The notes under the pieces: generated by a model
What the model saw: the letters and a program-made list of their open reading frames with translations, nothing else
The model's database searches: none
Told to the model about the DNA's origin: nothing
Translations under genes and position numbers: made by a program
Origin: a virus
UHGV virus genome: UHGV-0206901
Strand: one strand, 5' to 3'
Length of the DNA stretch: 26,230 nucleotides
Shown: piece by piece, positions 822-17,548 of the stretch
Numbering within the stretch: position 1 is the first letter of the stretch
Layout: every line of letters starts with the position of its first letter

Positions 822-1307
822 ATGACACTGACAGAGAACTTCATTCGTGATGCGATACAGCTTGACAGCGGTGCAGAGGTCATGTACGGCAGCAATCAGA
901 TCTATGACACCTATCCCTGCCGCTTTCCGACTGTTGAATTTCAGCTCATGGCAACGGATACCCTTGTGGAGGTTGCAGACCGCATCCGCATGGAGAAGGG
1001 CTACTTTCCGATGCATCCGTGGGACGGACGCACGGATGATGTGGACTGCGATGGTTGGTACGACTTTTATATCGGGATCAGCAAGCTCCCCGGCGACCAT
1101 CAGCAGTGCCAGCTTGACAGCAGTATCAGCTTTGTTGTTGTCAATTCCGATTCGGATGACAACGAGGATATGTACAACATCGACCTGACGGAATCCGAAA
1201 AGGAATATGTGTATGAGATACTGAACCGACAGTGCCGGAGGTATCACGGCAAGGACTGCGCCGAACTTCTGGCAGAGTCTGAAAAGGAGCTGATGGATAC
1301 AGCATGA
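822..1307 (+). CDS. Hypothetical protein
   Basis: ORF track 714-1307; internal ATG at 822 is preceded by GGAGGAGG (808-815) with a 6-nt spacer; stop overlaps the nrdD start (ATGA at 1304-1307); no recognisable motif. Confidence 0.5.
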   Translation: MTLTENFIRDAIQLDSGAEVMYGSNQIYDTYPCRFPTVEFQLMATDTLVEVADRIRMEKGYFPMHPWDGRTDDVDCDGWYDFYIGISKLPGDHQQCQLDSSISFVVVNSDSDDNEDMYNIDLTESEKEYVYEILNRQCRRYHGKDCAELLAESEKELMDTA

Positions 1308-3451
1308 GAATTATCAAGCGAAACGGCGCAGAGGTGCCGTATGACTGTGAAAAGATCAGAGCCGCAATTACTGCGGCAAACGATGAGATGGATTCCGGCG
1401 ACAGGATCACAGATACAGTAATCGGCTTTATCGTCGGCAGAGTCGAGCAGCGGTGTGAGACGCTTGCAAGACCTGTCCATGTCGAAGAAGTCCAGGACAT
1501 GGTTCTAGATGAGCTTGACAAAGCCGAGGCTTACAAACTTGCACGGCACTACAGCGAATACAGACTCCTGCATGAACAGCAGCGCAGGATGAATACCACG
1601 GACGGAAAAATTCTCAGCTTGCTGGAACGCAATAACGAGGAGGCAAAGCAGGAGAATGCGAACAAGAACCCGATCATCAACAGCACGCTCCGGGACTATA
1701 TGGCAGGCGAAGTCAGCAAGGACATCTGCCGTCGCTTCCTGTTCCCAGCAGATGTGATCGCCGCCCACGATGACGGCATCATCCATGTACACGATCTGGA
1801 CTACATCGCAGAGCCGATGCACAACTGCTGTCTGGTCAATCTTGAAGATATGCTCCAGAACGGTACGGTCGTATCCGGTACAATGATCGAAAAGCCGCAC
1901 AGCTTTTCCACTGCGTGTAACATTGCTACACAGATCATTGCGCAGGTCGCGTCGAACCAGTACGGCGGGCAGACAATTTCTCTGGCACATCTTGCGACTT
2001 TTGTGGATGTCAGCAGACAAAAGATCAGAGCCGAGGTATCTGAGGATGTGAACTGCGACTGCGGCGCAAAGCTGTCGGCGGAAGAACTCGACCATATCGT
2101 TGAGAAGCGTGTGCGCCGGGAAGTCAAGCGTGGTGTACAGACCATCCAGTACCAGATAAACACACTGCTCACCACCAACGGGCAGACTCCGTTTGTGACG
2201 GTGTTTATGTATTTGGACGAGGTGTCGGAGGGACAGACCAGAGATGACCTTGCGCTCATTATCGAGGAAACGCTGCTTCAGCGTATCGAGGGTGTGAAAA
2301 ATGAGAAGGGCGTCTGGATCACCCCGGCATTCCCGAAGCTTATCTATGTTCTCGATAAGGGTAATATCACCGAGGACAGCCGCTATTGGTATCTTACGAA
2401 GCTTGCCGCAAAATGCACGGCAAAGCGTATGGTTCCTGACTATATCTCCGCCAAGATCATGAAGAAGCTGAAGGGTGATGTGTATGCCTGCATGGGCTGC
2501 CGCAGTTTCCTCACGCCTTCGGACGATCACAAGTATTACGGCAGATTCAATCAGGGTGTTGTCACGCTGAATCTGGTGGATGTGGCGTGTTCTTCCAACG
2601 GTGATATGGACAAATTCTGGCAGCTTCTGAATGAACGCTGCGACCTATGCTTCAAGGCTCTGATGTGCAGGCATGAGCGGCTGAAAGGTACGCCGTCTGA
2701 TGTTGCGCCGATCCTCTGGCAGAACGGTGCATTGGCACGACTCGGCAAGGGTGAAACAATCGACAAGCTGCTGTATAACAATTACAGCACCATTTCACTC
2801 GGCTATGCCGGCATCGCAGAAATGACCTACCGCATGACGGGCTGTTCGCATACGGAGCCGGACGGAAAAGTATTTGCACTTGCAGTGATGAAATTCCTGA
2901 ATGAGAAGTGTGCGGCATGGAGAGAGCAGACAGGGATTTCTTTCTCCCTGTACGGCACGCCGATGGAATCTGTGACCTACAAATTCTCTCAGTGCTTACA
3001 GCGCAGACACGGTATTATCCCTCATGTGACGGATAAAAACTACATCACAAATTCGTATCATGTTCACGTTACTGAGCCGATTGACGCATTCAGCAAGCTG
3101 ACATTCGAGTCCGAATTTCAGGAGCTTTCACCGGGCGGTGCGATCAGCTATGTGGAAGTGCCGAATATGCAGCACAATATTCCTGCGGTACTTGCACTGA
3201 TGCGGCATATCTACGAAACGATTTTGTACGCCGAACTGAACACCAAATCTGATTACTGTCAGGCTTGCGGCTATGACGGCGAAATACAGATCGTGGAGGA
3301 GGACGGCAAGCTGATCTGGGAATGCCCGAACTGCGGCAACCGCGATCAGCGGACACTGAATGTATGCCGCCGCACCTGCGGTTACCTCGGAACGCAGTTC
3401 TGGAATCAGGGGCGCACCGCTGAGATCAAAGACCGGGTGATGCACCTGTGA
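1304..3451 (+). CDS. nrdD: Anaerobic ribonucleoside-triphosphate reductase (class III RNR)
   Basis: 715 aa; N-terminal ATP-cone-like region (MRIIKRNGAEVPYDCEKIRAAI); C-terminal zinc ribbon CQACG...CPNCG; glycyl-radical motif RRTCGYLG close to the C-terminus; followed directly by the activase gene. Confidence 0.93.
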   Translation: MRIIKRNGAEVPYDCEKIRAAITAANDEMDSGDRITDTVIGFIVGRVEQRCETLARPVHVEEVQDMVLDELDKAEAYKLARHYSEYRLLHEQQRRMNTTDGKILSLLERNNEEAKQENANKNPIINSTLRDYMAGEVSKDICRRFLFPADVIAAHDDGIIHVHDLDYIAEPMHNCCLVNLEDMLQNGTVVSGTMIEKPHSFSTACNIATQIIAQVASNQYGGQTISLAHLATFVDVSRQKIRAEVSEDVNCDCGAKLSAEELDHIVEKRVRREVKRGVQTIQYQINTLLTTNGQTPFVTVFMYLDEVSEGQTRDDLALIIEETLLQRIEGVKNEKGVWITPAFPKLIYVLDKGNITEDSRYWYLTKLAAKCTAKRMVPDYISAKIMKKLKGDVYACMGCRSFLTPSDDHKYYGRFNQGVVTLNLVDVACSSNGDMDKFWQLLNERCDLCFKALMCRHERLKGTPSDVAPILWQNGALARLGKGETIDKLLYNNYSTISLGYAGIAEMTYRMTGCSHTEPDGKVFALAVMKFLNEKCAAWREQTGISFSLYGTPMESVTYKFSQCLQRRHGIIPHVTDKNYITNSYHVHVTEPIDAFSKLTFESEFQELSPGGAISYVEVPNMQHNIPAVLALMRHIYETILYAELNTKSDYCQACGYDGEIQIVEEDGKLIWECPNCGNRDQRTLNVCRRTCGYLGTQFWNQGRTAEIKDRVMHL

Positions 3452-3915
3452 ATTACTGCGGTCTGAATAAAAACGACATCGCCAACGGTGACGGTGTACG
3501 AGTTTCGCTGTTCGTATCCGGATGCCGGAATCACTGCAAGGGCTGTCACAACCCGGAGACATGGGATTTCAGCTATGGACAGCCTTTCACCAAGAAAACT
3601 GAAGATGAGATCATCGAAGCCCTGCGTCCCTCGTGGATACAGGGGCTTTCTGTTCTCGGCGGTGAACCCTGCGAGGAAGAAAACGAGCGTGTGCTGCTGC
3701 CGCTGCTGAAAAAGATCTGGTGGGAGATGCCGGAAAAAGATATTTGGCTGTATAGCGGGTACACCTATGAACAGTTGCAAGGCAGAGCGATACTTCGGTA
3801 TGTGGATGTACTTGTGGACGGTCCGTTTCTGCTGGAGCAGAAGGATATCTCGCTTCCGTTCCGCGGCAGCCGGAATCAACGGATCCTCCGATTAAGAAAT
3901 GGGGTACGGGTATGA
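3448..3915 (+). CDS. nrdG: Anaerobic ribonucleotide reductase activating protein (radical SAM)
   Basis: GTG start overlapping the nrdD stop (GTGA); N-terminus MNYCGLNKNDIANGDGVRVSLFVSGCRNHCKGCHN matches the canonical NrdG N-terminus, including the CxxxCxxC radical-SAM cluster. Confidence 0.9.
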   Translation: MNYCGLNKNDIANGDGVRVSLFVSGCRNHCKGCHNPETWDFSYGQPFTKKTEDEIIEALRPSWIQGLSVLGGEPCEEENERVLLPLLKKIWWEMPEKDIWLYSGYTYEQLQGRAILRYVDVLVDGPFLLEQKDISLPFRGSRNQRILRLRNGVRV

Positions 3916-4229
3916 GAGCCAGACTGAGACCGCCAGGAGATGCCGTTCGCTGCGATGCCTGCGGATGTGCATTTGTTCCGGAAACACTGACGCAGCGTGA
4001 GGGTGAGATCGAATACAGCTTCTTCCGCTGCGACTATTGCGGCAAGGCGTATCTCGTATCCGTTACGGATGCAGACCTCTGCAAGGATATCCGCAGATAC
4101 AGAACGCTTGCGGAAAAGCACAAGATCAAGCCCCTGAGTGAACAGTCGCTCCGCGAGATGGCTGCGCTGAAAGAGCAGAACTTAAAACGAGCCGCAAAGC
4201 TGCGGCAGTTGTACTATGTGGAGGGATGA
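3912..4229 (+). CDS. Zinc-ribbon protein, function unknown
   Basis: 105-aa ORF whose ATG overlaps the nrdG stop; two CxxC pairs (CDACGC, CDYCGK); basic C-terminal tail. Confidence 0.5.
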   Translation: MRARLRPPGDAVRCDACGCAFVPETLTQREGEIEYSFFRCDYCGKAYLVSVTDADLCKDIRRYRTLAEKHKIKPLSEQSLREMAALKEQNLKRAAKLRQLYYVEG

Positions 4230-4230
4230 G

Positions 4231-5514
4231 ATGAAGACAGCAGAACTTCGTGTGATCCCTGTCACGGAGCTGAAGCCTGCGGCATATAACCCGCGCAAAA
4301 AGCTGAAGCCCGGCGACAAGGAATACGAAAAGATCAAAAACAGCATCGAGGAATTCGGCTTTGCCGATCCGCTGGTAGTCAACGCCGACATGACCATCAT
4401 CGGCGGGCATCAGCGACTGACCGTAGCGATGGCGCTCGGATACACCGAGGTACCCTGTGCGGTGGTGGACATCGACAAGGTCAGAGAAAAGGCGCTGAAC
4501 ATTGCGCTCAACAAGATCACCGGCGCATGGGACGAGAGCCTTCTGGCTGAACTGTTGCAGGACATTCAGGACAGCGACTTCGACCTCGGAAAGACCGGCT
4601 TTGATCCGCCGGAGATCGAGCAGCTTTTCAATCAGGTACACAATAAAGACATCAAGGAAGATGACTTTGATATTGAAGAAGAGCTGAAACAGCCGACCTT
4701 CTCAAAACTCGGTGACCTGTGGATTCTGGGCAAGCACCGTATCGTCTGCGGTGACAGCACCAAGTCGGAAACCTACGAGCTGCTTATGAACGGTGAAAAA
4801 GCAAATCTCCTGCTGACCGATCCGCCGTACCTCGTAGCATACAGCAATACCTCCGGCAGCATCAAGAACGATGACCTTTCGGATAAGGAAGGCTATGAAT
4901 TCCTGAAAAGCGCATTTGCCTGTTTCAAAGAGAACCTTGCAGATGATTCTGCGGTGTATGTTTTCTACGCGACATCAAAATCGAGGGTGTTCTATGACGC
5001 TTTCGAGGATGCCGGATTCCGTGTTTCTTGCGGATTGGTCTGGCGCAAGGACAGGCTTGTGCTGTCGAGGACGGACTATCAGCAGAACTTCGAGCCTGTG
5101 ATCTACGGCTGGAAAAAGAACGGCAAGCACACATGGTACGGTGACCGTAAGCAGACCACCTGCTTTGACTTCGACCGTCCGAAAAGCTCCAAAGCCGAGG
5201 GTGAGGGACATCCGACTGCAAAGCCTGTACCGCTGATGGCATATCTCATCAAGCAGTCCACCATGACAAACGGCATTGTGCTGGACGGCTTCCACGGTTC
5301 CGGTTCTACCATGATCGCCTGTGAACAGCTCGACCGAAAATGCAGAGCTGTAGAATTGGATGAAAAGTTTGTGGACGTTCAAGTGAAGCGGTATATCAAA
5401 TTCCGCGAGGGCAAGTACGATGATGTGTATGTCATCCGTGACGGGCAGAAGCTTTCCTTCGATGAAGCGGTGGCAGCGATGCCGACAGCAGAGGGTGGTG
5501 ATACGAATGGGTGA
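4231..5514 (+). CDS. ParB-like nuclease domain fused to a DNA amino-methyltransferase (probably N6-adenine; beta-class motif order)
   Basis: ATG at 4231 preceded by GGAGGGA; N-terminal ParB/Srx-like region (ELKPAAYNPRK...IIGGHQRL); central LLLTDPPY (motif IV) precedes GFHGSGST (motif I), the beta-class order. Confidence 0.85.
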   Translation: MKTAELRVIPVTELKPAAYNPRKKLKPGDKEYEKIKNSIEEFGFADPLVVNADMTIIGGHQRLTVAMALGYTEVPCAVVDIDKVREKALNIALNKITGAWDESLLAELLQDIQDSDFDLGKTGFDPPEIEQLFNQVHNKDIKEDDFDIEEELKQPTFSKLGDLWILGKHRIVCGDSTKSETYELLMNGEKANLLLTDPPYLVAYSNTSGSIKNDDLSDKEGYEFLKSAFACFKENLADDSAVYVFYATSKSRVFYDAFEDAGFRVSCGLVWRKDRLVLSRTDYQQNFEPVIYGWKKNGKHTWYGDRKQTTCFDFDRPKSSKAEGEGHPTAKPVPLMAYLIKQSTMTNGIVLDGFHGSGSTMIACEQLDRKCRAVELDEKFVDVQVKRYIKFREGKYDDVYVIRDGQKLSFDEAVAAMPTAEGGDTNG

Positions 5515-6310
5515 ACTGAAACCTCTGCTTCATGTGGTCTCCTTCAGCGGCGGGAAAGACAGCACTGCGATGCTCCTGAAGATGTTAGAAATGGGAATGC
5601 AGGTTGATCTGGTGCTGTTTTGCGATACCGGATTAGAATTCCCGGCACTGTATGACCATGTACACAAAGTCGAACAGGATACCGGCGTGAAAATCACGAC
5701 TGTAAAGAGCGAAAACACATTTGAGTATCTCATGCTCCACAAGCCGATCAAGCGGAAGAAACCGGAACTGCGCGGCAAGACCGGTTACAGTTGGGCGGGA
5801 CCGCTGATGCGGTGGTGTACAAACCTTCTGAAAACGGTGCCTCGTGAGAAGTTTCTCAGCGAACTGCGGAAAAATTACGATGTGATCGAGTACATCGGCA
5901 TCGCCGCCGATGAAACGGAACGCATCACGCACAAATGCAGCTGCCGACCGAATGTCCGTCTGCCGCTTGTGGAGTGGGGCATGACCGAAGCTGACTGCCT
6001 GCAATACTGCAGGGAACGCGGCTATGACTGGGGCGGTCTGTATGAGAAATTCGGACGGGTATCCTGTTGGTGCTGTCCGCTGCAGCCGCTGAACGAGCTG
6101 CGTGTCCTCTACTACGATTTTCCCGACCTCTGGAAACAACTCAGGGAATGGGATGATGCAACATGGCGCACCTTCAAGCCCGGATGGTCAGTCCGGAAAC
6201 TGGAGGCGCGTTTTGATTTTGAGCTGGAATGGCAGACGGACGGCAATCAGCTCGGCACAAAGGAATTCCACAAAGCCCTGAAAAAGAGACTGGAGGATGT
6301 CGATGGCTGA
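5507..6310 (+). CDS. PAPS-reductase-like PP-loop protein (DndC-like fold family), possible DNA-modification accessory enzyme
   Basis: Internal ATG at 5507 with upstream GAGGGTGGTGA; PP-loop motif SFSGGKDS near the N-terminus; C-terminal cysteine cluster CWCCP; 8-nt overlap with the upstream methyltransferase gene and 8-nt overlap with the downstream one. Confidence 0.75.
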   Translation: MGELKPLLHVVSFSGGKDSTAMLLKMLEMGMQVDLVLFCDTGLEFPALYDHVHKVEQDTGVKITTVKSENTFEYLMLHKPIKRKKPELRGKTGYSWAGPLMRWCTNLLKTVPREKFLSELRKNYDVIEYIGIAADETERITHKCSCRPNVRLPLVEWGMTEADCLQYCRERGYDWGGLYEKFGRVSCWCCPLQPLNELRVLYYDFPDLWKQLREWDDATWRTFKPGWSVRKLEARFDFELEWQTDGNQLGTKEFHKALKKRLEDVDG

Positions 6311-7082
6311 TGTGAAATGTGAGCTGTATCACGATAACTTCCAGAACTTCAAATCCTACTGCATCCCAAAAGCACAGCTCGTCATTGCTGACATTCCGTA
6401 CAACATCGGCGGCGACTTTTATGCCAGCCGTCCCGACTGGTATGTGAACGGTGACAATCAGAACGGTGAAAGCAGCAAAGCGCACAAGGCTGCATTCCAC
6501 ACGGATTACACCTTCAACATCGCTGAATACTTCGCCTTCTGTAACCGGCTGCTCAAAAAGGAGCCGTCCAAAGGTGAGAAGGATGCTCCCTGCATGATTG
6601 TATTCTGTGCCTTTCAGCAGATACCCGAGGTCATCCGGCAGGCGGAGAAATACGGCTTCAAGAAGTATCAGTTTTTGTGCTTTATGAAGAATTACAGTCC
6701 GCAGGTGCTGAAGGCGAACATGAGGATCGTGGGCGCAACGGAGTTTGCTCTGGTGCTGTATCGGGGAAAGCTGCCGAAGTTCCGCAATACCGATGCATAC
6801 GGCAAGAGGCACATGATCTTCGACCATTTTGACTGGATGCGGGACGGCAAGGATATCCCGAAGATACATCCTTCGCAGAAGCCGGTAAATCTCCTGAAAC
6901 GGCTGATCGGGATATTTACCGACGAGGGTGATGTGGTCATCGATCCCTGCGCCGGTTCCGGCTCAACGCTGCGTGCGGCGAGGGAGCTTGGCAGACACAG
7001 CTACGGCTTTGAAGTCAGCCGAGATTTTTACAACAAAGCCTGTGAGCAGATGCTTGGGGAGGTGCAGGATGACAAAGTATGA
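6303..7082 (+). CDS. DNA amino-methyltransferase (N6-adenine or N4-cytosine), divergent motif IV
   Basis: ATG at 6303 is 6 nt after GGAGG; IADIPYN (variant DPPY-type motif IV) near the N-terminus and DPCAGSGST (motif I, AdoMet binding) near the C-terminus. Confidence 0.7.
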   Translation: MADVKCELYHDNFQNFKSYCIPKAQLVIADIPYNIGGDFYASRPDWYVNGDNQNGESSKAHKAAFHTDYTFNIAEYFAFCNRLLKKEPSKGEKDAPCMIVFCAFQQIPEVIRQAEKYGFKKYQFLCFMKNYSPQVLKANMRIVGATEFALVLYRGKLPKFRNTDAYGKRHMIFDHFDWMRDGKDIPKIHPSQKPVNLLKRLIGIFTDEGDVVIDPCAGSGSTLRAARELGRHSYGFEVSRDFYNKACEQMLGEVQDDKV

Positions 7083-7284
7083 GTGCGCCATTGTGACGGC
7101 ATACACAGATATCTCGATGCTGTGCGGCGATGATCTGAAATATCTGTATGACTATCTTTCCGGCTTTATCGGCAGACCGGTGTATACACACGAGATTCCT
7201 GCGGTGGCTGCGGCTTACAGAGACAAGATCAGAGAGGACTTCCTCGATCTGTGCAGGAACGCAAAGGAGGCGGATGATGGATAA
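7069..7284 (+). CDS. Small hypothetical protein
   Basis: 71-aa ORF starting at an internal ATG of ORF 6928-7284, overlapping the upstream methyltransferase stop; no recognisable motif; the 11-nt overlap with the next gene suggests translational coupling. Confidence 0.4.
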   Translation: MTKYECAIVTAYTDISMLCGDDLKYLYDYLSGFIGRPVYTHEIPAVAAAYRDKIREDFLDLCRNAKEADDG

Positions 7285-9487
7285 GAAACACTTGACCCTC
7301 GGCAGCCTGTTTGACGGCTCGGGGGGGTTTCCGCTTGGCGGCATCCTCGCAGGGATCGAGCCGAAGTGGAGCAGCGAAATTGAACCTTTTCCGGTGCTTG
7401 TCACGCACAAGCGACTGCCTGGGGTGAAGCACTACGGCGATGTATCCACACTGAACGGTGCAGAGCTTCCGCCGGTGGATATTATCACCTTCGGCAGCCC
7501 TTGTCAGGATCTGTCCATTGCTGGAAAGCGTGCCGGAATCCATGACGGTGATCGGTCGAACCTGTTCTTTCAGGCGATCCGTATCATCAAAGAAATGAGG
7601 GATGCAACAAATGGACAATACCCGCGATACTGCGTCTGGGAGAATGTCCCCGGCGCTTTCTCCTCCCACGGAGGAGACGATTTCAAAGCTGTCCTCGAAG
7701 CAGTTATCGGAATTAAAGAAGAAGGGATCGAGGTGCCTGCGCCTGAAAATCACAGATGGGCAAAATCAGACGTATATCTGGGAGACGGATGGAGCGTGGC
7801 TTACCGAGTTTTCGATGCTCAATACTGGGGTGTCCCCCAACGCAGAGCAAGAATCTACCTTGTCGCAGATTTTGCTGGCGGAAGTGCCGGAGAAATACTA
7901 TTTAAGTCCGAAGGCGTGTCTGGGTATACTCCGCAGGGCTTCCGTTCGTGGCAAGGAACTGCCGGAGGTGCTGAAGAAAGCACTGGAGCGACAGGCTGGC
8001 GGTCTGACGCTGGAGGTGGAACCCTCTGCGTAAACTGTCAGGGCACGGCAGGTGTCGGTATCACAGAAGATAAGGCACTGGCACTTGTCGCACAGGATCA
8101 CGGGAATCATCCAGCCGTTCTTGCCGCAGGTTTTTCCACAGAGCATAGTGCAAAAGCACGAAGCATCGGCTACGAAGAGGAAGTATCTCCTACACTGAGA
8201 GCTGGTGTTGTTCCGGCGGCAATGGAGCTTCAAAGCTATCCCGTTGAAAATCATCCTGCGGATTCGAGAGTCAGGGTGCGTGAGGACGGAAAGTGTCAGG
8301 GGCTTACAGGCAGAATGGGAACAGGCGGCGGAAACGTACCGCTTGTAGCAGAACCGATTACGCTAAAAATCCGCAGTGGTGGCGGAAATGGTGGTAAGGG
8401 CGCTATCTGGCAAACAGATAAATCCGCAACTCTTGCAACCAATAATGACCAGACGCTTTTTCAGCCGGAGGTCAAGGCTTTCGGTGTATGCAGCAAGCAC
8501 TCCAATGCGATGATGTCCGACAATCCGCACAGCGGATTCTATGAGGCGACCACAAGCAGAACGCTCGACCAAAGTGGTGGAAATTCTGTGACATCGAATC
8601 AGGGCGGCATCTGCGTGGTAGCACCTGCGCCTGAAACCTTCGATGTGCGTTTCACATCAGACGGTACAAAAAACGCTCGTGGGCATTGTTACCCGACAGA
8701 CATTTCCCGATGCCTTGATACGAGCGAGGCGAACCCGGACAGCAATCACGGAGGAGTTGCGGTGGTGGCTCTCGAACCGGGGGCGGCATCCCGTATCGGC
8801 GGTCATGTATACAGTGACGGCAAAAGCGGCACGCTCCGTGCAAATGCCGGAGACAATCAGCAGGCTGTTGTGGTAGCCGAGAAGGAGACCTATGCACTGC
8901 AAGGCTCGATGATCGGTCGCGCCGATCAGAACGGACCGCAGGGTGATGGTATCAATGAAGATGTGTGCTTTACGCTGAACACAACAGACAGGCATGCTGT
9001 CGCAGCACCGGATGCCGATCACTACAGCACAAGCAAGAATTCTCACCACACAGTCGCCGCACATGAACAGGCAAACACGCTGGTCGCATCCGACTGGAAG
9101 GATCCTCCGCTTGTGAACGACCTTCCGAATGACGAGCCGGTATATATCGTTCGTCGTCTGACTCCGGTGGAGTGCGCCAGATTGCAGGGATTCCCCGACT
9201 GGTGGTGTGCCGACCTTGCGATTCCCGATCCGACCGATGAGGAGATCACCTTCTGGATGGAAGTATGGGAAACTTGGAGACAGATCACAAATCCCAAGGG
9301 AAAGCCGAAAACGGAAAAGCAGATCCGCAAATGGTTGGCTGATCCGTACACGGACAGTGCCGAGTACAAGTTATGGGGCAACGGTGTCTCAGAGCCCGTT
9401 GTGTTCTTCGTGCTATCCGGCATTGCCTGGGCGGCACAGAATTCTGAAACTAATGCAGCAAATTGTGAACATTCTGATACTATGTAA
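7274..9487 (+). CDS. DNA cytosine-5 methyltransferase with an exceptionally long variable (target-recognition) region, possibly multispecific
   Basis: ATG at 7274 preceded by AAGGAGG (7264-7270); motif I LFDGSGG, motif IV GSPCQDLS, motif VI ENVPG, motif VIII QRRARIYLV, C-terminal RRLTPVECARLQGFPDWW; about 480 aa lie between motifs VIII and IX. Confidence 0.9.
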   Translation: MMDKKHLTLGSLFDGSGGFPLGGILAGIEPKWSSEIEPFPVLVTHKRLPGVKHYGDVSTLNGAELPPVDIITFGSPCQDLSIAGKRAGIHDGDRSNLFFQAIRIIKEMRDATNGQYPRYCVWENVPGAFSSHGGDDFKAVLEAVIGIKEEGIEVPAPENHRWAKSDVYLGDGWSVAYRVFDAQYWGVPQRRARIYLVADFAGGSAGEILFKSEGVSGYTPQGFRSWQGTAGGAEESTGATGWRSDAGGGTLCVNCQGTAGVGITEDKALALVAQDHGNHPAVLAAGFSTEHSAKARSIGYEEEVSPTLRAGVVPAAMELQSYPVENHPADSRVRVREDGKCQGLTGRMGTGGGNVPLVAEPITLKIRSGGGNGGKGAIWQTDKSATLATNNDQTLFQPEVKAFGVCSKHSNAMMSDNPHSGFYEATTSRTLDQSGGNSVTSNQGGICVVAPAPETFDVRFTSDGTKNARGHCYPTDISRCLDTSEANPDSNHGGVAVVALEPGAASRIGGHVYSDGKSGTLRANAGDNQQAVVVAEKETYALQGSMIGRADQNGPQGDGINEDVCFTLNTTDRHAVAAPDADHYSTSKNSHHTVAAHEQANTLVASDWKDPPLVNDLPNDEPVYIVRRLTPVECARLQGFPDWWCADLAIPDPTDEEITFWMEVWETWRQITNPKGKPKTEKQIRKWLADPYTDSAEYKLWGNGVSEPVVFFVLSGIAWAAQNSETNAANCEHSDTM

Positions 9488-9649: not shown

Positions 9650-10771
9650 ATGAAAACTTATGCAATGATCATTGGAAACCGCAAGGAACTCACAAAGAGA
9701 ATCGAGGCACTCACCGGAGAGCGCAGCGTATACACCTTCATGCCGAGATGCGCCTATGAGATCGGGGCATTCGCAGTCGAGAAGGACGGCACACTTACGG
9801 CACAGGACGATGCCAACCAGAGCGTGATCGACACCCTGAGAGCCGAGGGTATGATCGGTGATGAGATCATCGCAGAGAGCATCGAGGCAGTCGAGCCGGA
9901 GCAGACCGATGAGACCGCAGAGCCGGAACAGCCTGCACCGCCCGTAAGCACCGATGAATGGGACGATGATGAGGATGACGACGATGAGAACAGCGTCGAG
10001 GGCGAGAATGCGGAAGCGGAAGAGCCGGAGGAGTCCGAAGAAAATGCCGATAAGTCGGAGCCTGCCGCAGAGCCAGAAGCCGCACCTCCTGCGACCGAGG
10101 ATGCCTGGGATGATGAACCGGAGGATGAACCCGGCGACGAGCCGGAAGAAACCACCGAGCTTCCTGAACCGCTGACCGCAGAGATCAGCTTCCCGCTGAG
10201 CCATCACACGGTGCAGAGCCTTACGAACCTCATCTGCATGATCCACTCCCGCGGCGCACTTCTCAGCAAGGCGACCGGCGGAGAATTCTTCGCAGACAAG
10301 AGCCTCGCCGATGCGATCCTCGATGACAAGACCTTCCGCAGCATCCACGAGCTTATCGCCTACATCAGAGTATGGGAGGAAACGAATCCCGAACTGAAGG
10401 GCATCCGTTTCGCCGATGACAAGCTGATCTTTGACGGCTTCGGTGCAGCACAGGATGCCGAGACGGTGCAGACCTTCACCAAGCTCGCCGCAGCCATGAA
10501 CAGGATGGCGATCACGCAGAAACGTGTGCAAGCAAAGGATGTCGATGACAGCAACGAAAAGTACGCACTCCGCATCTGGCTGATCCGCCTTGGGCTGAAC
10601 GGTGCTGACTTCAAGGCTGACCGCAAGCGCCTCATGACTCCGCTTTCCGGACACACCGCATTCCGCAACGATGAGGAGCGTGAACGCTGGGAGGCAAAGC
10701 AAAAGGCAAAGCGTGATGCTGCCAGAACCGAACTGACCGAGGAGGATGAAAACGATGCAGTTTCCGAATGA
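9650..10771 (+). CDS. Amidoligase-like paralog, probably catalytically degenerate, with a ~95-aa acidic low-complexity insertion
   Basis: 373 aa; the C-terminal half aligns by eye with the downstream amidoligase-like ORF (TVQSLTNL vs TPQTLRNL; KYALRIWLIRLGLNGADF vs KFAMRTWLMRMGFIGDEF); the GVEIE and HCH motifs of the paralog are absent; residues ~80-172 are D/E/P-rich. Confidence 0.55.
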   Translation: MKTYAMIIGNRKELTKRIEALTGERSVYTFMPRCAYEIGAFAVEKDGTLTAQDDANQSVIDTLRAEGMIGDEIIAESIEAVEPEQTDETAEPEQPAPPVSTDEWDDDEDDDDENSVEGENAEAEEPEESEENADKSEPAAEPEAAPPATEDAWDDEPEDEPGDEPEETTELPEPLTAEISFPLSHHTVQSLTNLICMIHSRGALLSKATGGEFFADKSLADAILDDKTFRSIHELIAYIRVWEETNPELKGIRFADDKLIFDGFGAAQDAETVQTFTKLAAAMNRMAITQKRVQAKDVDDSNEKYALRIWLIRLGLNGADFKADRKRLMTPLSGHTAFRNDEERERWEAKQKAKRDAARTELTEEDENDAVSE

Positions 10772-11200: not shown

Positions 11201-12145
11201 ATGACTGAGAAAACCGCACAGCAGATCAACAGAATGAAGGAGCAGACCATCGGGGTTGAGATCGAGATGAACAACATCACCCGCAAGGCTGCCGCAAAGC
11301 TCGCCGCTGACTTCTTCGGCACGAACCGCTACGAGGACACGGCCTGCCGCAACGGCTACTACACTTGGAGCGCATGGGATGCACAGGGGCGCGAGTGGAA
11401 ATTCCAGCGGGACGTGAGCATCGCAGGCTCCGACAGCGAAAAGTGCGAACTGGTCACACCGATCCTGCACTACGCAGACATCGAAACCCTGCAGGAGCTT
11501 GTGAGAAAGCTCAGGAAGGCAGGAGCGCGCAGTGATTACACGCGGGGATGTGGAGTCCACTGCCATATTGGAGCCCAGGGACACACACCGCAGACCTTGA
11601 GAAACCTCGCAAACCTGATGGCAAGCCACGAAACCCTGATCGCCGAGGCAATCAGAGTAGACCAGAGCAGAATGCGCCGCTACTGCAGAACAGTTGACCC
11701 GAGATTCCTTGAACAGCTCAACCGCAAAAAGCCCACCACGATGGCACAGCTTGCGGACATCTGGTACGGCGCACAGGGCTGCGAATACGGCAGAACCCAC
11801 CACTACAACGACAGCCGCTATCACATGCTCAACCTCCACGCTACCTTCACCAAAGGCACGGTCGAGTTCAGACTTTTCCAGTTCGCACCGCCCTCAAACG
11901 GCAAGCAGAACGGGCTCCACGCAGGCAAGCTCAAGAGCTACATTCAGCTCTGCCTCGCAATGAGCCAGATGGCAAAGGACCTGCGGAGCGCCAGCCCCAA
12001 GGAGCAGCAGAAGGAAAACAAAAAGTTCGCCATGCGGACTTGGCTGATGAGAATGGGATTCATCGGGGATGAATTCGCAACGGCGAGAGAGGTCCTCACT
12101 GAGAACCTTACGGGCGACAACAGCTTCCGCTTCGGCAGATCTTAA
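11201..12145 (+). CDS. Putative amidoligase (glutamine-synthetase-like / gamma-glutamyl-cysteine-ligase-like ATP-dependent amide ligase family)
   Basis: 314 aa; N-terminal IGVEIEMNN strand with paired glutamates and a central GCGVHCHIG motif, both typical of Amidoligase_2-type enzymes as I recall them; own promoter cassette; followed by an AIG2-like gene. Confidence 0.65.
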   Translation: MTEKTAQQINRMKEQTIGVEIEMNNITRKAAAKLAADFFGTNRYEDTACRNGYYTWSAWDAQGREWKFQRDVSIAGSDSEKCELVTPILHYADIETLQELVRKLRKAGARSDYTRGCGVHCHIGAQGHTPQTLRNLANLMASHETLIAEAIRVDQSRMRRYCRTVDPRFLEQLNRKKPTTMAQLADIWYGAQGCEYGRTHHYNDSRYHMLNLHATFTKGTVEFRLFQFAPPSNGKQNGLHAGKLKSYIQLCLAMSQMAKDLRSASPKEQQKENKKFAMRTWLMRMGFIGDEFATAREVLTENLTGDNSFRFGRS

Positions 12146-12478: not shown

Positions 12479-12940
12479 ATGAACAAGAAAAAATACTACA
12501 TAGCCTACGGCAGCAACCTCAACATCCGCCAGATGCGATTCCGCTGCCCAGGCGCAAAGCCTATCGGCATCACGGTGATTCCCGACTACGAACTGCTCTA
12601 CAAGGGCAGCAAGACCGGCGCGTACCTGACCATAGAACCGAAGAAGAACGGCATCGTTCCGATTGCGGTATGGGAGGTCACCGCAGCAGACGAGAAGCGG
12701 CTGGATGCCTACGAGGGCTGCCCGACCTTCTACTACAAGAAGAACGTCTGCCTGCCGGTGAAGCTGGCAAGCGGCAAGACCAAGCGCCTGACAGCATTCG
12801 TCTACATCATGCACGAGGAGCGCAGCCTCGGAATTCCGTCGCTTGCCTACATCCGCACCTGCGAGGAAGGCTATCGCAACTTCGGATTTGATTTGAAGTA
12901 CCTTGACAGGGCATACATGAGAAGCACAAAGGAGGACTGA
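12479..12940 (+). CDS. AIG2 / gamma-glutamyl cyclotransferase (GGCT)-like protein
   Basis: 153 aa; N-terminal YIAYGSNLN matches the Y-x-A-Y-G-S-N-L/M hallmark of the GGCT/AIG2 fold; a candidate catalytic Glu lies in LDAYEGCP. Confidence 0.7.
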   Translation: MNKKKYYIAYGSNLNIRQMRFRCPGAKPIGITVIPDYELLYKGSKTGAYLTIEPKKNGIVPIAVWEVTAADEKRLDAYEGCPTFYYKKNVCLPVKLASGKTKRLTAFVYIMHEERSLGIPSLAYIRTCEEGYRNFGFDLKYLDRAYMRSTKED

Positions 12941-17074: not shown

Positions 17075-17548
17075 ATGGCTCAGAGAGGCAGAAAACCGAC
17101 GCCGACAGCAATCAAGGAACTGGAAGGCAATCCGGGCAAGCGTCCGCTGAATGATGCAGAGCCGAAGCCGGAACGCAAGGCACCGCCCTGTCCGAAATGG
17201 CTGGAGCCCGAAGCAAAAAAGGAATGGCGCAGGCTGTCAAAGCAACTGGAGCAGATTGGTGTGCTGACCGAGGTCGATCAGGCGGCATTCGCATCCTACT
17301 GTCAGGCATACGCACGATGGAAAGAAGCCGAGGAATTCATGACACAGCACGGCACGATCGTGAAAACAAAATCAGGTTACTGGCAGCAGGTGCCGCAGGT
17401 ATCCATTGCACAGACCTATCTGAAGATCATGAATAAGATCGCAGAACAGTTCGGTCTGACTCCTGCCGCAAGAAGCAGGATCACCGCAGGTGCGGATATG
17501 AAGGACGCTGCCGTTGACGATATGGATGAACTTCTCGGAGGTGACTGA
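17075..17548 (+). CDS. terS: Terminase small subunit
   Basis: AAGGAG 8 nt upstream of the ATG at 17075; 157 aa; basic N-terminus (RGRKPTPTAIKELEGNPGKRP) and overall pattern typical of P27-family small terminases; sits directly upstream of, and overlaps, the large terminase. Confidence 0.8.
   Translation: MAQRGRKPTPTAIKELEGNPGKRPLNDAEPKPERKAPPCPKWLEPEAKKEWRRLSKQLEQIGVLTEVDQAAFASYCQAYARWKEAEEFMTQHGTIVKTKSGYWQQVPQVSIAQTYLKIMNKIAEQFGLTPAARSRITAGADMKDAAVDDMDELLGGD

What the first reader, a model, noticed from the sequence alone, without database searches (positions are those of the whole stretch)
4231..7082. ParB-methyltransferase fusion, PAPS-reductase-like protein and a second methyltransferase as one coupled module
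Three genes with overlapping stop/start codons encode a ParB-nuclease-domain/amino-methyltransferase fusion, a PP-loop (SGGKDS) PAPS-reductase-like protein with a CWCCP cysteine cluster, and another amino-methyltransferase with an atypical DIPY motif IV. PAPS-reductase-fold proteins in DNA contexts (DndC-like) activate substrates by adenylation. Here, between two methyltransferases and next to a DNA-binding ParB domain, the protein may take part in a more complex DNA base or backbone modification rather than sulfate assimilation.
Basis: inference. Interest (0 to 1): 0.6.

Follow-up and report, generated by a model that had tools for sequence, protein, structure and literature searches.

The report
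Phage methylase island with NinC-like enzyme
A gut-bacterium phage carries three DNA methyltransferase genes wrapped around a "PAPS reductase-like" gene. That gene is not a sulfur-metabolism enzyme but a relative of lambda NinC and of DNA-phosphorothioation enzymes, so this is most likely an anti-restriction gene cluster of a known kind whose chemistry is still unknown.

Summary
4231-5514 encodes a ParB_N + N6/N4 methyltransferase fusion, 5507-6310 a PAPS_reduct-fold PP-loop protein (SGGKDS, SCWCCP), and 6303-7082 a second N6/N4 methyltransferase with a DIPY motif IV. An 8-nt ATGnnTGA overlap joins each pair.

The PP-loop protein is not CysH-like. It lacks the C-terminal catalytic Cys and hits no CysH model. 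It belongs to the large phage family phrog_424, is homologous to lambda NinC and to the PAPS domain of the Vibrio phage PAPS-Dam fusion shown genetically to act against Dnd, and matches SspD better than BrxP or DndC among defence models.

The ParB-methyltransferase to PAPS-like gene pair is conserved in the close clade: 17 of 19 prophage loci at 58% identity or more. It dissolves in more distant relatives, where the gene often sits between terminase and portal. The second methyltransferase is not a fixed partner. Overlapping codons run from NrdD to the C5 methylase, so they are not specific evidence of coupling.

No phosphorothioation partner (NTPase, nickase, desulfurase) is in the window.

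Verdict: an anti-restriction DNA-modification island and a new variant of a known but mechanistically unsolved kind. Moderate interest.

The parts
4231..5514 (+). ParB_N + beta-class N6/N4 amino-methyltransferase fusion (427 aa). ParB domain aa 5-85 with a GHQR (GxxR) motif; DPPY motif IV; GSGST motif I.
   Evidence: Pfam PF02195 33 bits and PF01555 E 3.4e-23. phrog_498 E 1.6e-161. PADLOC MTase_II PDLC03229 E 1e-143. Closest solved relatives are DpnA-type adenine MTases and CcrM. Both domains' motifs are conserved in 46 distinct fusions found next to PAPS-like genes.
5507..6310 (+). NinC/SspD-like PP-loop protein with a PAPS-reductase fold (267 aa). SGGKDS at nt 5546-5563; CWCCP at nt 6065-6079.
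6303..7082 (+). Second beta-class N6/N4 methyltransferase (259 aa) with motif IV DIPY (nt 6390-6401) and motif I AGSGST.
   Evidence: Pfam PF01555 E 1.7e-26. phrog_67 E 4e-48. DIPY is present in 111 of 120 cluster representatives at 69-96% identity; the others are DLPY, DVPY, DIPF and DPPY.
7069..7284 (+). Small DUF7736 protein (71 aa) lying between MTase2 and the C5 MTase.
   Evidence: Pfam PF24875 E 3.8e-15. It holds the same position in relatives L004-L006.
7274..9487 (+). Large orphan C5 cytosine methyltransferase (about 736 aa) with a long variable middle region; the third methyltransferase of the island.
   Evidence: Pfam PF00145 E 2e-36 in 3 stretches. PADLOC oMTase PDLC03715 E 3e-253. 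A C5 MTase follows the PAPS-like gene directly in L017, L026, L027, L038 and L116-L119.
3912..4229 (+). Small Cys-rich (Zn-ribbon-like) protein just upstream. It is context only, not a conserved part of the pair.
   Evidence: phrog_1315 E 2e-12. It is absent between NrdG and ParB-MTase in L004-L006.

Best explanation
The region is the anti-restriction (self-modification) island of a siphovirus-like phage or prophage of gut Oscillospiraceae.

Three orphan DNA methyltransferases pre-emptively methylate the phage genome: a ParB-fused DPPY enzyme, a DIPY enzyme and a large C5 enzyme.

The 'PAPS reductase-like' gene between them is a member of the phage NinC/phrog_424 family. It is a PP-loop ATP-pyrophosphatase-type enzyme with a conserved Cys cluster (C104, C168, C187-x-x-C190), probably an Fe-S or Zn site. 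Among characterised proteins it is closest to the sulfur-inserting SspD/BrxP/DndC enzymes of DNA phosphorothioation systems. It is not an assimilatory CysH.

I infer that it acts on nucleic acid, or on the host's phosphorothioate-based defence, as a counter-defence factor, as was shown genetically for the homologous PAPS-Dam fusion of Vibrio phages. In this clade it works alongside the upstream ParB-methyltransferase, which could supply DNA binding and targeting, and may work physically with it.

Shown: domain identities, motifs, fold, homology, gene-order conservation. Inferred: ATP-pyrophosphatase activity, metal cluster, DNA or defence-system target, partnership with ParB-MTase.
For: - Domains and motifs.
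- Phage context (TerS, TerL, portal, capsid, tail; NrdDG).
- Hosts are Oscillospiraceae/Ruminococcus MAGs, up to 89% identity.
- The family is large, with an invariant PP-loop and conserved Cys.
- SspD is the best PADLOC match for 52 of 52 members, BrxP for 47, DndC for 28.
- No CysH model hit.
- Fold: PAPS/APS reductase, TtuA, LarE-[4Fe-4S] and NcsA are the nearest structures.
- Homology to lambda NinC (98.4%) and to Vibrio phage 44E38.1 p0018 (97.9%).
- p0018 plus p0019 transfer lets a phage infect a Dnd+ host (bioRxiv 10.1101/2021.05.05.442762).
- ParB-MTase is immediately upstream in all close relatives.
- PAPS-MTase fusions exist with two other MTase families.
- There is no restriction endonuclease partner, so the MTases are orphans.
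Against: - No biochemical datum exists for this subfamily.
- Outside the close clade the gene is usually not next to any MTase or ParB gene. ParB-MTase is upstream in 6 of 56 viral loci, and nothing is detected within 6 kb in most loci below 50% identity. The protein can therefore evidently work without a dedicated MTase partner.
- The window lacks every other component that all known phosphorothioation systems need: a DndD/SspC/BrxC NTPase, DndE/SspB, and a cysteine desulfurase (PMC12914056).
- The Vibrio experiment moved two genes together and did not define a mechanism.
- Identity to NinC/p0018 is only about 25%, and their PP-loop is SGGRTS, with C168 not conserved.
Confidence: 0.55

Rival explanations
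1. One reading: ParB-MTase, the PP-loop enzyme and MTase2 form one pathway that builds a complex modification on phage DNA. Examples would be adenylation-driven thiolation or amination of a base or the backbone combined with methylation. The ParB-MTase would replace the DndD/DndE or SspB/SspC targeting components.
For: - The ParB-MTase to PAPS gene pair is conserved, with overlapping codons, across several phage backbones.
- Rosetta-stone fusions exist: PAPS-Dam and PAPS-C5 MTase.
- The ParB/PAPS pairing recalls DndB/DndC, and standalone ParB genes lie next to distant homologues (L065, L156, L158).
- SAM-synthetase-like genes sit in the same clusters.
Against: - MTase2 is not a conserved member.
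- The PAPS-like gene is found detached, between TerL and portal, in sister phages that keep the MTases elsewhere.
- No hypermodification genes (glycosyltransferase, DpdA, hmdU kinase and the like) appear among neighbours.
- Overlapping codons also link unrelated genes (NrdD/G) here.
- The L034 fusion is a single contig and could be a frameshift artefact.
Confidence: 0.12
2. Phosphorothioate mimicry in trans. The phage SspD/DndC-like protein plugs into, or competes with, the host's Dnd, Ssp or BREX type 4 machinery. As a result phage DNA becomes PT-marked, or the host system is poisoned. The methyltransferases are independent neighbours.
For: - SspD/BrxP/DndC are the nearest characterised families.
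- Anti-Dnd genetics exist for a homologue.
- PT systems, especially BREX type 4, are common in gut Bacillota and Bacteroidota (PMC12914056).
- The standalone occurrence of the gene in many phages fits a factor that uses host partners.
Against: - Scores to DndC and SspD are far below orthologue level: TIGR03183 gives 20 bits against a cut-off of 290, and the SspD model is covered only at positions 2-202 of 277.
- Nothing is known about PT systems in the actual host.
- Lambda NinC occurs in E. coli K-12 phage biology without any Dnd context.
Confidence: 0.15
3. RNA-directed enzyme. The protein is a TtcA/TtuA/NcsA-like thiolase, or another PP-loop enzyme, that modifies tRNA or rRNA to tune translation during infection.
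Against: - No RNA-binding extension (THUMP, PUA or TtcA-type Zn fingers) is present; only about 160 aa of the common core aligns.
- The HMM best matches are the DNA-PT proteins, not TtcA/TtuA.
- Gene context is DNA methylation, replication and packaging.
Confidence: 0.08
4. Auxiliary metabolic gene: a true PAPS/APS reductase (CysH) that boosts host sulfate assimilation, as PHROGs and many virome papers annotate it.
For: - The Pfam name and the phrog_424 category 'moron, auxiliary metabolic gene'.
- The closest solved folds are APS/PAPS reductases.
Against: - It has the canonical SGGKDS ATP-PPase loop rather than the degenerate CysH loop (established knowledge of the family).
- There is no conserved Cys after residue 190 and no ECGLH tail.
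- No NCBIfam CysH/APS reductase model hits at E of 0.01 or below.
- Only about 160 of 267 residues superpose, at 15-20% identity.
- The context is DNA enzymes.
Confidence: 0.03

Closest known systems
Phage lambda NinC / PHROG 424 'phosphoadenosine phosphosulfate reductase' family
   Same: Homologous over about 175-190 residues: hhalign 98.4%, E 9e-15; phrog_424 E 2.6e-51. Similar size. Shared motifs: PP-loop, DTG, xxCT..K, GI(A/R)ADE..R and a C-x-x-C. It is a phage accessory gene of unknown biochemical function.
   Different: Only about 25-29% identity. NinC has SGGRTS rather than SGGKDS and lacks the conserved C168. NinC lies in the nin region next to recombination genes, not next to a ParB-methyltransferase.
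Vibrio phage 44E38.1 p0018, a PAPS-domain + Dam methyltransferase fusion (anti-Dnd; Piel et al., bioRxiv 10.1101/2021.05.05.442762)
   Same: Homologous PAPS domain: hhalign 97.9%, E 3.7e-13; tblastn E 1e-7 over 91% of the query. It is directly linked to an adenine methyltransferase and sits in a variable anti-defence locus. A genetic anti-defence phenotype is known.
   Different: It is a fusion rather than separate overlapping genes. The partner is Dam (PF05869), not ParB_N + N6_N4. It is a NinC-type sequence (SGGRTS) in a Gram-negative podovirus. The mechanism is undefined there too.
SspD / BrxP / DndC, the PAPS-reductase-domain proteins of DNA phosphorothioation systems
   Same: These are the best defence-library matches: SspD E 7e-27 with 52 of 52 family members, then BrxP, then DndC. 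They share the canonical PP-loop and Cys-dependent chemistry. SspD is of similar size (model of 277 positions).
   Different: Scores are far below orthologue level: DndC TIGR03183 gives 20 bits against a cut-off of 290. None of the obligatory partners is encoded nearby: DndD/SspC/BrxC NTPase, DndE/SspB, cysteine desulfurase.
Assimilatory PAPS/APS reductase (CysH)
   Different: There is no C-terminal catalytic Cys and no CysH HMM hit. The ATP-type PP-loop is canonical. An extra C-terminal helical region of about 100 aa is not matched.
ParB-family / PAPS-reductase-family gene pairs DndB-DndC and IbrB-IbrA (E. coli)
   Same: A ParB/Srx-fold protein is encoded directly upstream of a PAPS-reductase-fold protein. 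A weak hit appears to the IbrA-type model PRK06850 (E 1.6e-5).
   Different: Here the ParB domain is fused to a methyltransferase. No DUF3440 is present. The resemblance rests on recalled knowledge of those systems and was not tested beyond the weak HMM hit.

Membership tests
Phage NinC / phrog_424 PAPS-reductase-like family | Significant profile match over the PP-loop core | tested here: met
   phrog_424 E 2.6e-51. hhalign to lambda NinC 98.4% and to Vibrio p0018 97.9%.
Phage NinC / phrog_424 PAPS-reductase-like family | Anti-defence (anti-Dnd) phenotype, as for Vibrio phage p0018 | not testable with these tools
   Requires phage genetics.
DndC (Dnd phosphorothioation) | Canonical SGGxDS PP-loop | tested here: met
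   SGGKDS; S14 and K17 are invariant and G15, G16, D18 and S19 are conserved at 90% or more in 52 sequences.
DndC (Dnd phosphorothioation) | Score above the curated DndC equivalog cut-off (TIGR03183) | tested here: not met
   20 bits against a cut-off of 290.4; only aa 9-137 align.
DndC (Dnd phosphorothioation) | Adjacent DndD ATPase and DndE (and DndA/IscS) genes | tested here: not met
   No such domains appear in any window ORF. Supply from the host in trans cannot be excluded.
SspD (SspABCD) | Match to the SspD profile | tested here: inconclusive
   It is the best PADLOC match, at 92.8 bits and E 7e-27, but covers only model positions 2-202 of 277, and no curated cut-off exists. 52 of 52 family members match.
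SspD (SspABCD) | Neighbouring SspB (DUF4007) and SspC (DUF6079 ATPase) | tested here: not met
   Absent from the window and from the neighbours of relatives.
Any known PT system | Phosphorothioate linkages in the DNA | not testable with these tools
   Needs LC-MS/MS or iodine cleavage of phage DNA.
Assimilatory CysH PAPS/APS reductase | PAPS-reductase alpha/beta fold | tested here: met
Assimilatory CysH PAPS/APS reductase | C-terminal catalytic Cys (ECGLH-type tail) and a CysH equivalog HMM hit | tested here: not met
   No conserved Cys lies beyond residue 190 and no ECG[LI]H is present. No CysH/APS reductase NCBIfam model hits at E of 0.01 or below.
Beta-class N6/N4 amino-methyltransferases (PF01555) | Motif IV (D/S)PP(Y/F) upstream of motif I FxGxG, in both MTases | tested here: met
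   MTase1 has DPPY followed by GSGST. MTase2 has the variant DIPY followed by AGSGST. The variant is conserved in 111 of 120 relatives, so it is selected, not decayed.
ParB/Srx N-terminal domain | Pfam score above the gathering threshold and a conserved GxxR motif | tested here: met
   33 bits against 26.3. G59-H60-x-R62 is conserved at 90% or more in 46 fusions.
Chromosome/plasmid partition ParB | Central HTH DNA-binding and C-terminal dimerisation domains; a ParA partner | tested here: not met
   Only aa 5-85 match ParB_N and the rest is methyltransferase. No ParA is in the window.

The most novel reading that the evidence does not exclude
The ParB-methyltransferase and the SspD/NinC-like PP-loop protein form a minimal, phage-encoded two-protein DNA modification system. 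The ParB/MTase fusion supplies the NTP-dependent DNA loading and sequence recognition that DndD/E or SspB/C supply in bacteria. The PP-loop/Cys-cluster enzyme installs a non-methyl mark (phosphorothioate or a thiolated/aminated base) on phage DNA. This would make it a new, compact type of viral DNA modification, widespread in human-gut Clostridia phages.
Probability: 0.12. Interest if true: 0.8.

Novelty: new variant of a known kind. Interest (0 to 1): 0.42.

Why it matters
Phage 'PAPS reductase' genes are among the most common accessory genes in viromes and are routinely counted as sulfur-metabolism AMGs. This analysis adds to the case that this annotation is wrong for the family: the protein has an ATP-type PP-loop, lacks the CysH catalytic tail, sits in a DNA-enzyme context, and is homologous to NinC and to an anti-Dnd factor.

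The function of lambda NinC and its relatives has been open for decades. The tightly conserved ParB-methyltransferase to PAPS-like pair in abundant gut Oscillospiraceae and Lachnospiraceae prophages offers a defined two-gene unit for testing whether these enzymes modify DNA or disarm phosphorothioate-based immunity. That matters for understanding phage host range in the gut. As a single locus it is one ordinary member of a very large family.

Tried and rejected
1. JSS1_004 as the 'phage PAPS reductase that evades Dnd'. Rejected: it is a T7-like kinase/shut-off protein. The correct reference was Piel et al..
2. PDB 21fy chain C 'PptA' is the closest solved-sequence relative of the family profile (E 1.8e-6). 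Three literature searches did not reveal what PptA is. The window's ParB-MTase does not match other chains of that entry. Unresolved.
3. A single-sequence PDB search gave only spurious defensin hits.
5. My first naive two-strand greedy gene caller lost real genes to antisense ORFs. I replaced it with same-strand calling.
6. 7-deazaguanine (QueC/DpdA) pathway. Rejected: only 3 of 52 family members touch QueC weakly, and no DpdA or QueD/E genes are nearby.
7. Stop-codon recoding as an explanation for the 'fragmented' homologues. Rejected: those ORFs are intact.
8. Model coordinates are not exposed, so I could not check whether the four Cys cluster in space.
9. Local HMMs for neighbourhood counts cover only ParB_N, N6_N4, C5 and Dam. 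MTase frequencies in distant loci are therefore lower bounds.
Full report
**1. What is in the sequence**

The + strand between 1304 and 9487 is an uninterrupted chain of genes whose stops and starts abut or overlap:
- NrdD, 1304-3451
- NrdG, 3448-3915
- a small Cys-rich protein, 3912-4229
- the ParB-methyltransferase, 4231-5514
- the PAPS-reductase-like gene, 5507-6310
- a second methyltransferase, 6303-7082
- DUF7736, 7069-7284
- a 736-aa C5 methyltransferase, 7274-9487

Pfam confirms the domains:
- ParB_N (33 bits against a cut-off of 26.3) plus N6_N4_Mtase (E 3.4e-23)
- PAPS_reduct (E 4.6e-13)
- N6_N4_Mtase (E 1.7e-26)
- DUF7736
- C-5 DNA_methylase (E 2e-36)

The motifs SGGKDS, SCWCCP and DIPY can be read in the translations. 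Two qualifications apply: the overlap chain is a property of the whole operon, including the unrelated Nrd genes, and a third methyltransferase belongs to the same block.

**2. Genomic setting**

The rest of the window encodes two amidoligase-type proteins, a gamma-glutamyl cyclotransferase, TerS, an unusually long TerL, portal, protease, major capsid, connector proteins and major tail protein. It is therefore a siphovirus-like phage or prophage.

The nearest deposited phages are human-gut 'NatCom' phages of Acutalibacteraceae and Oscillospiraceae. The PAPS-like protein is 82-93% identical to genes in Oscillospiraceae and Ruminococcus MAGs.

No restriction endonuclease, cysteine desulfurase, sulfur carrier, DndD/SspC/BrxC-type NTPase or DndE/SspB homologue was detected in any ORF of the window.

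**3. Classifying the PP-loop protein**

*Family size and conservation.*
- The protein belongs to phrog_424 (E 2.6e-51).
- The family has 5,908 cluster representatives at E of 1e-5 or below and 4,051 representatives at 50% clustering.
- An alignment of 52 diverse members (mean column identity 33%) was examined.
- Invariant in it: S14 and K17 of the PP-loop, G131, E136, R139, C168, Y179, C187, C190 and W209.
- At least 90% conserved: G15, G16, D18, S19, D40, the R102-W103-C104 triad and K109.
- The family therefore keeps a canonical ATP-pyrophosphatase loop and four cysteines, two of them as C-x-x-C.

*HMM comparisons.*
- In NCBIfam no CysH or APS-reductase equivalog is hit.
- DndC TIGR03183 scores 20 bits against a cut-off of 290.
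- In PADLOC the order is SspD (E 7e-27), BrxP (3e-10), DndC (3e-7).
- This holds family-wide: SspD matches 52 of 52 members, BrxP 47 and DndC 28.

*Structure.*
- An AlphaFold2 model is very confident (pLDDT 96.6).
- Only about 160 of 267 residues superpose, at 15-20% identity.
- The best viral models are other phage 'PAPS reductases'.

*Homology to characterised or named phage proteins.*
- Profile-profile comparison shows homology to lambda NinC (98.4%, E 9e-15).
- It also shows homology to the N-terminal domain of Vibrio phage 44E38.1 p0018 (97.9%, E 3.7e-13).
- The closest solved sequence relative is PDB 21fy chain C, 'PptA' (E 1.8e-6). I could not establish what that protein is.

*Conclusion.* The protein is not an assimilatory CysH. 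It has no C-terminal catalytic Cys, no CysH model hit and an ATP-type PP-loop. It is a member of the phage NinC-like family and sits nearest to the SspD/BrxP/DndC branch.

**4. Is it a coupled module?**

*Close relatives.* Five look-ups of proteins 58-83% identical, on different phage backbones, all show a ParB_N + N6_N4 methyltransferase gene immediately upstream. What follows the PAPS-like gene varies:
- the DIPY methyltransferase (L004-L006)
- a C5 methyltransferase (L017)
- a SAM-synthetase-N-like gene plus a second ParB-methyltransferase (L008, L015)
- an unknown gene (L012)

*Prophage loci from bacterial genomes.*
- At 58% identity or more, ParB-MTase is directly upstream in 17 of 19 loci that have upstream sequence.
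- In the 50-57% bin only 2 of 16 keep it. Nine of 16 have the gene between TerL and portal, with an N6_N4 + C5 + amidoligase block 2.7-5.4 kb upstream. The phage NatCom_11393 shows the same arrangement.
- Below 50% no adjacent methyltransferase was detected with my local models.

*Dereplicated IMG/VR loci (32-59% identity).*
- The immediate upstream gene is a ParB-MTase in 6 of 56.
- It is a C5 MTase in 2 of 56 and TerL in 4-6 of 56.
- The downstream gene is a C5 MTase in 3 of 56 and an N6_N4 MTase in 1 of 56.

*Independent linkages.*
- The Vibrio phage protein is a PAPS + Dam (PF05869) fusion.
- One contig encodes a PAPS + C5 MTase fusion. It is a single case and could be a frameshift.
- Burkholderia phages have an N6_N4 MTase directly upstream without ParB.
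- Standalone ParB genes lie next to a few distant homologues.

*Reading.* The ParB-MTase to PAPS-like pair is a real, conserved feature of this clade, and association with DNA methyltransferases is a recurrent theme of the family. However, MTase2 is not a fixed partner, and the family as a whole functions in many contexts without a dedicated methyltransferase.

**5. The methyltransferases**

*MTase1.*
- It is most similar to DpnA-type adenine methyltransferases and CcrM among solved structures.
- In 46 distinct ParB-MTase fusions found beside PAPS-like genes, the ParB GH-x-R motif, the T(D/S)PPY motif and the F-x-GSG-T motif are all conserved.
- Both domains are therefore under selection.
- Where two ParB-MTases flank the PAPS-like gene, the upstream one carries SPPY and the downstream one DPPY.

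*MTase2.*
- The DIPY motif is a conserved subfamily trait: 111 of 120 cluster representatives at 69-96% identity carry it, some standing for more than 1,000 sequences, and the rest are DLPY, DVPY, DIPF or DPPY.
- It is atypical but not a sign of decay.

*C5 enzyme.* It is long, and its Pfam match is split into three stretches. This resembles multispecific phage C5 methyltransferases; that is my inference.

**6. Literature**

- Phage PAPS-reductase homologues are repeatedly listed as sulfur AMGs (for example PMC11318856; PMC12323421).
- Several authors note that they occur in lambda, marine phages and archaeal viruses and that their function is unknown (PMC11437467).
- PMC13551039 calls them predicted DndC/SspD homologues and candidate anti-defence genes.
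- The one experiment I found: moving p0018 (PAPS-Dam) plus p0019 from 'red' into 'blue' Vibrio crassostreae podoviruses let them infect a Dnd-carrying host. [quoted passage not shown]
- All four known phosphorothioation systems require a PAPS-domain protein plus a P-loop NTPase (PMC12914056).

**7. Most likely mechanism**

*Shown.*
- The region is an island of three orphan methyltransferases around a NinC/SspD-like PP-loop protein.
- The gene pair is conserved with ParB-MTase in the close clade.

*Inferred.*
- The methyltransferases protect phage DNA from host R-M systems.
- The PP-loop protein is an ATP-pyrophosphatase with a Cys-ligated metal site.
- It acts as a further counter-defence factor in one of two ways. 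Either it installs a non-methyl mark on DNA, or it interferes with or exploits host phosphorothioate-based immunity.
- The ParB-MTase possibly provides DNA targeting in this clade.

I put 0.55 on this general reading. Rival readings:

| Rival reading | Confidence |
|---|---|
| PT mimicry or interference using host partners | 0.15 |
| RNA-directed enzyme | 0.08 |
| True CysH auxiliary metabolic gene | 0.03 |

**8. Novelty and verdict**

- The family, its mis-annotation, its link to methyltransferases and an anti-Dnd phenotype are already in the literature.
- The specific, conserved ParB-methyltransferase to SspD-like pair in gut Clostridia phages was not described in anything my searches returned. 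One search found only three papers holding all four terms, and none describes it.
- I therefore rate it a new variant of a known kind.
- Interest is moderate (0.42). A specialist would not be surprised by the locus. It does give a compact, abundant two-gene unit for attacking the long-open question of what NinC-like phage 'PAPS reductases' do.

Noticed in passing
window 9650-10771, 11201-12145, 12479-12940: Two amidoligase-type genes (the second is Pfam Amidoligase_2, E 1e-55) and a GGACT/gamma-glutamyl cyclotransferase gene follow the methyltransferase block. The same amidoligase (+GGCT) block recurs downstream of ParB-MTase/PAPS/C5-MTase in many related prophages (L001, L017, L105, L114-L117, L123, L140-L141). 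Its function is unknown, and it may be part of the same accessory island.
   Followed up: partly
window 17548-20214: The large terminase is 888 aa, about 350 aa longer than the 515-535-aa TerL of related phages. Its PHROG matches are split into two stretches, which suggests an intein or another insertion.
   Followed up: no
window 7274-9487: The C5 methyltransferase is 736 aa. The Pfam DNA_methylase match is split into three stretches around a long variable middle, reminiscent of multispecific phage C5 methyltransferases with several target-recognition domains.
   Followed up: no
L008 7780-8562, L015 6824-7606, L004 1-1024: Relatives carry a 260-aa S-AdoMet_synt_N-like gene directly downstream of the PAPS-like gene, between two ParB-MTases. 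In the closest relative a full MetK lies a few kb upstream. This points to SAM supply or handling as part of the cluster.
   Followed up: no
L008, L015, L025, L030 (ParB-MTase pairs flanking the PAPS-like gene): When two ParB-methyltransferases flank the PAPS-like gene, the upstream copy has an SPPY motif IV (typical of N4-cytosine enzymes) and the downstream copy has DPPY (typical of N6-adenine enzymes).
   Followed up: partly
L034 4995-7619: One IMG/VR contig encodes an 874-aa PAPS_reduct + C5 DNA_methylase fusion directly downstream of a ParB-MTase. It could be a genuine Rosetta-stone fusion or an assembly frameshift.
   Followed up: partly
L002 (Oscillospiraceae phage NatCom_11393) 7995-8771; L131-L139, L143: In a sister clade (about 56% identity) the PAPS-like gene sits alone between the large terminase and the portal gene, an unusual slot for an enzyme gene. 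The MTase/amidoligase block stays 3-5 kb upstream.
   Followed up: partly
window 7069-7284: A small DUF7736 gene is conserved between MTase2 and the C5 methyltransferase (also in L004-L006). Its function is unknown.
   Followed up: no
PDB 21fy chain C ('PptA'): This is the closest solved-structure sequence relative of the family profile (E 1.8e-6). It shares the xCT..LK, GxxxxExxR and C-x-x-C motifs. I could not find what this protein is or what it is complexed with.
   Followed up: partly
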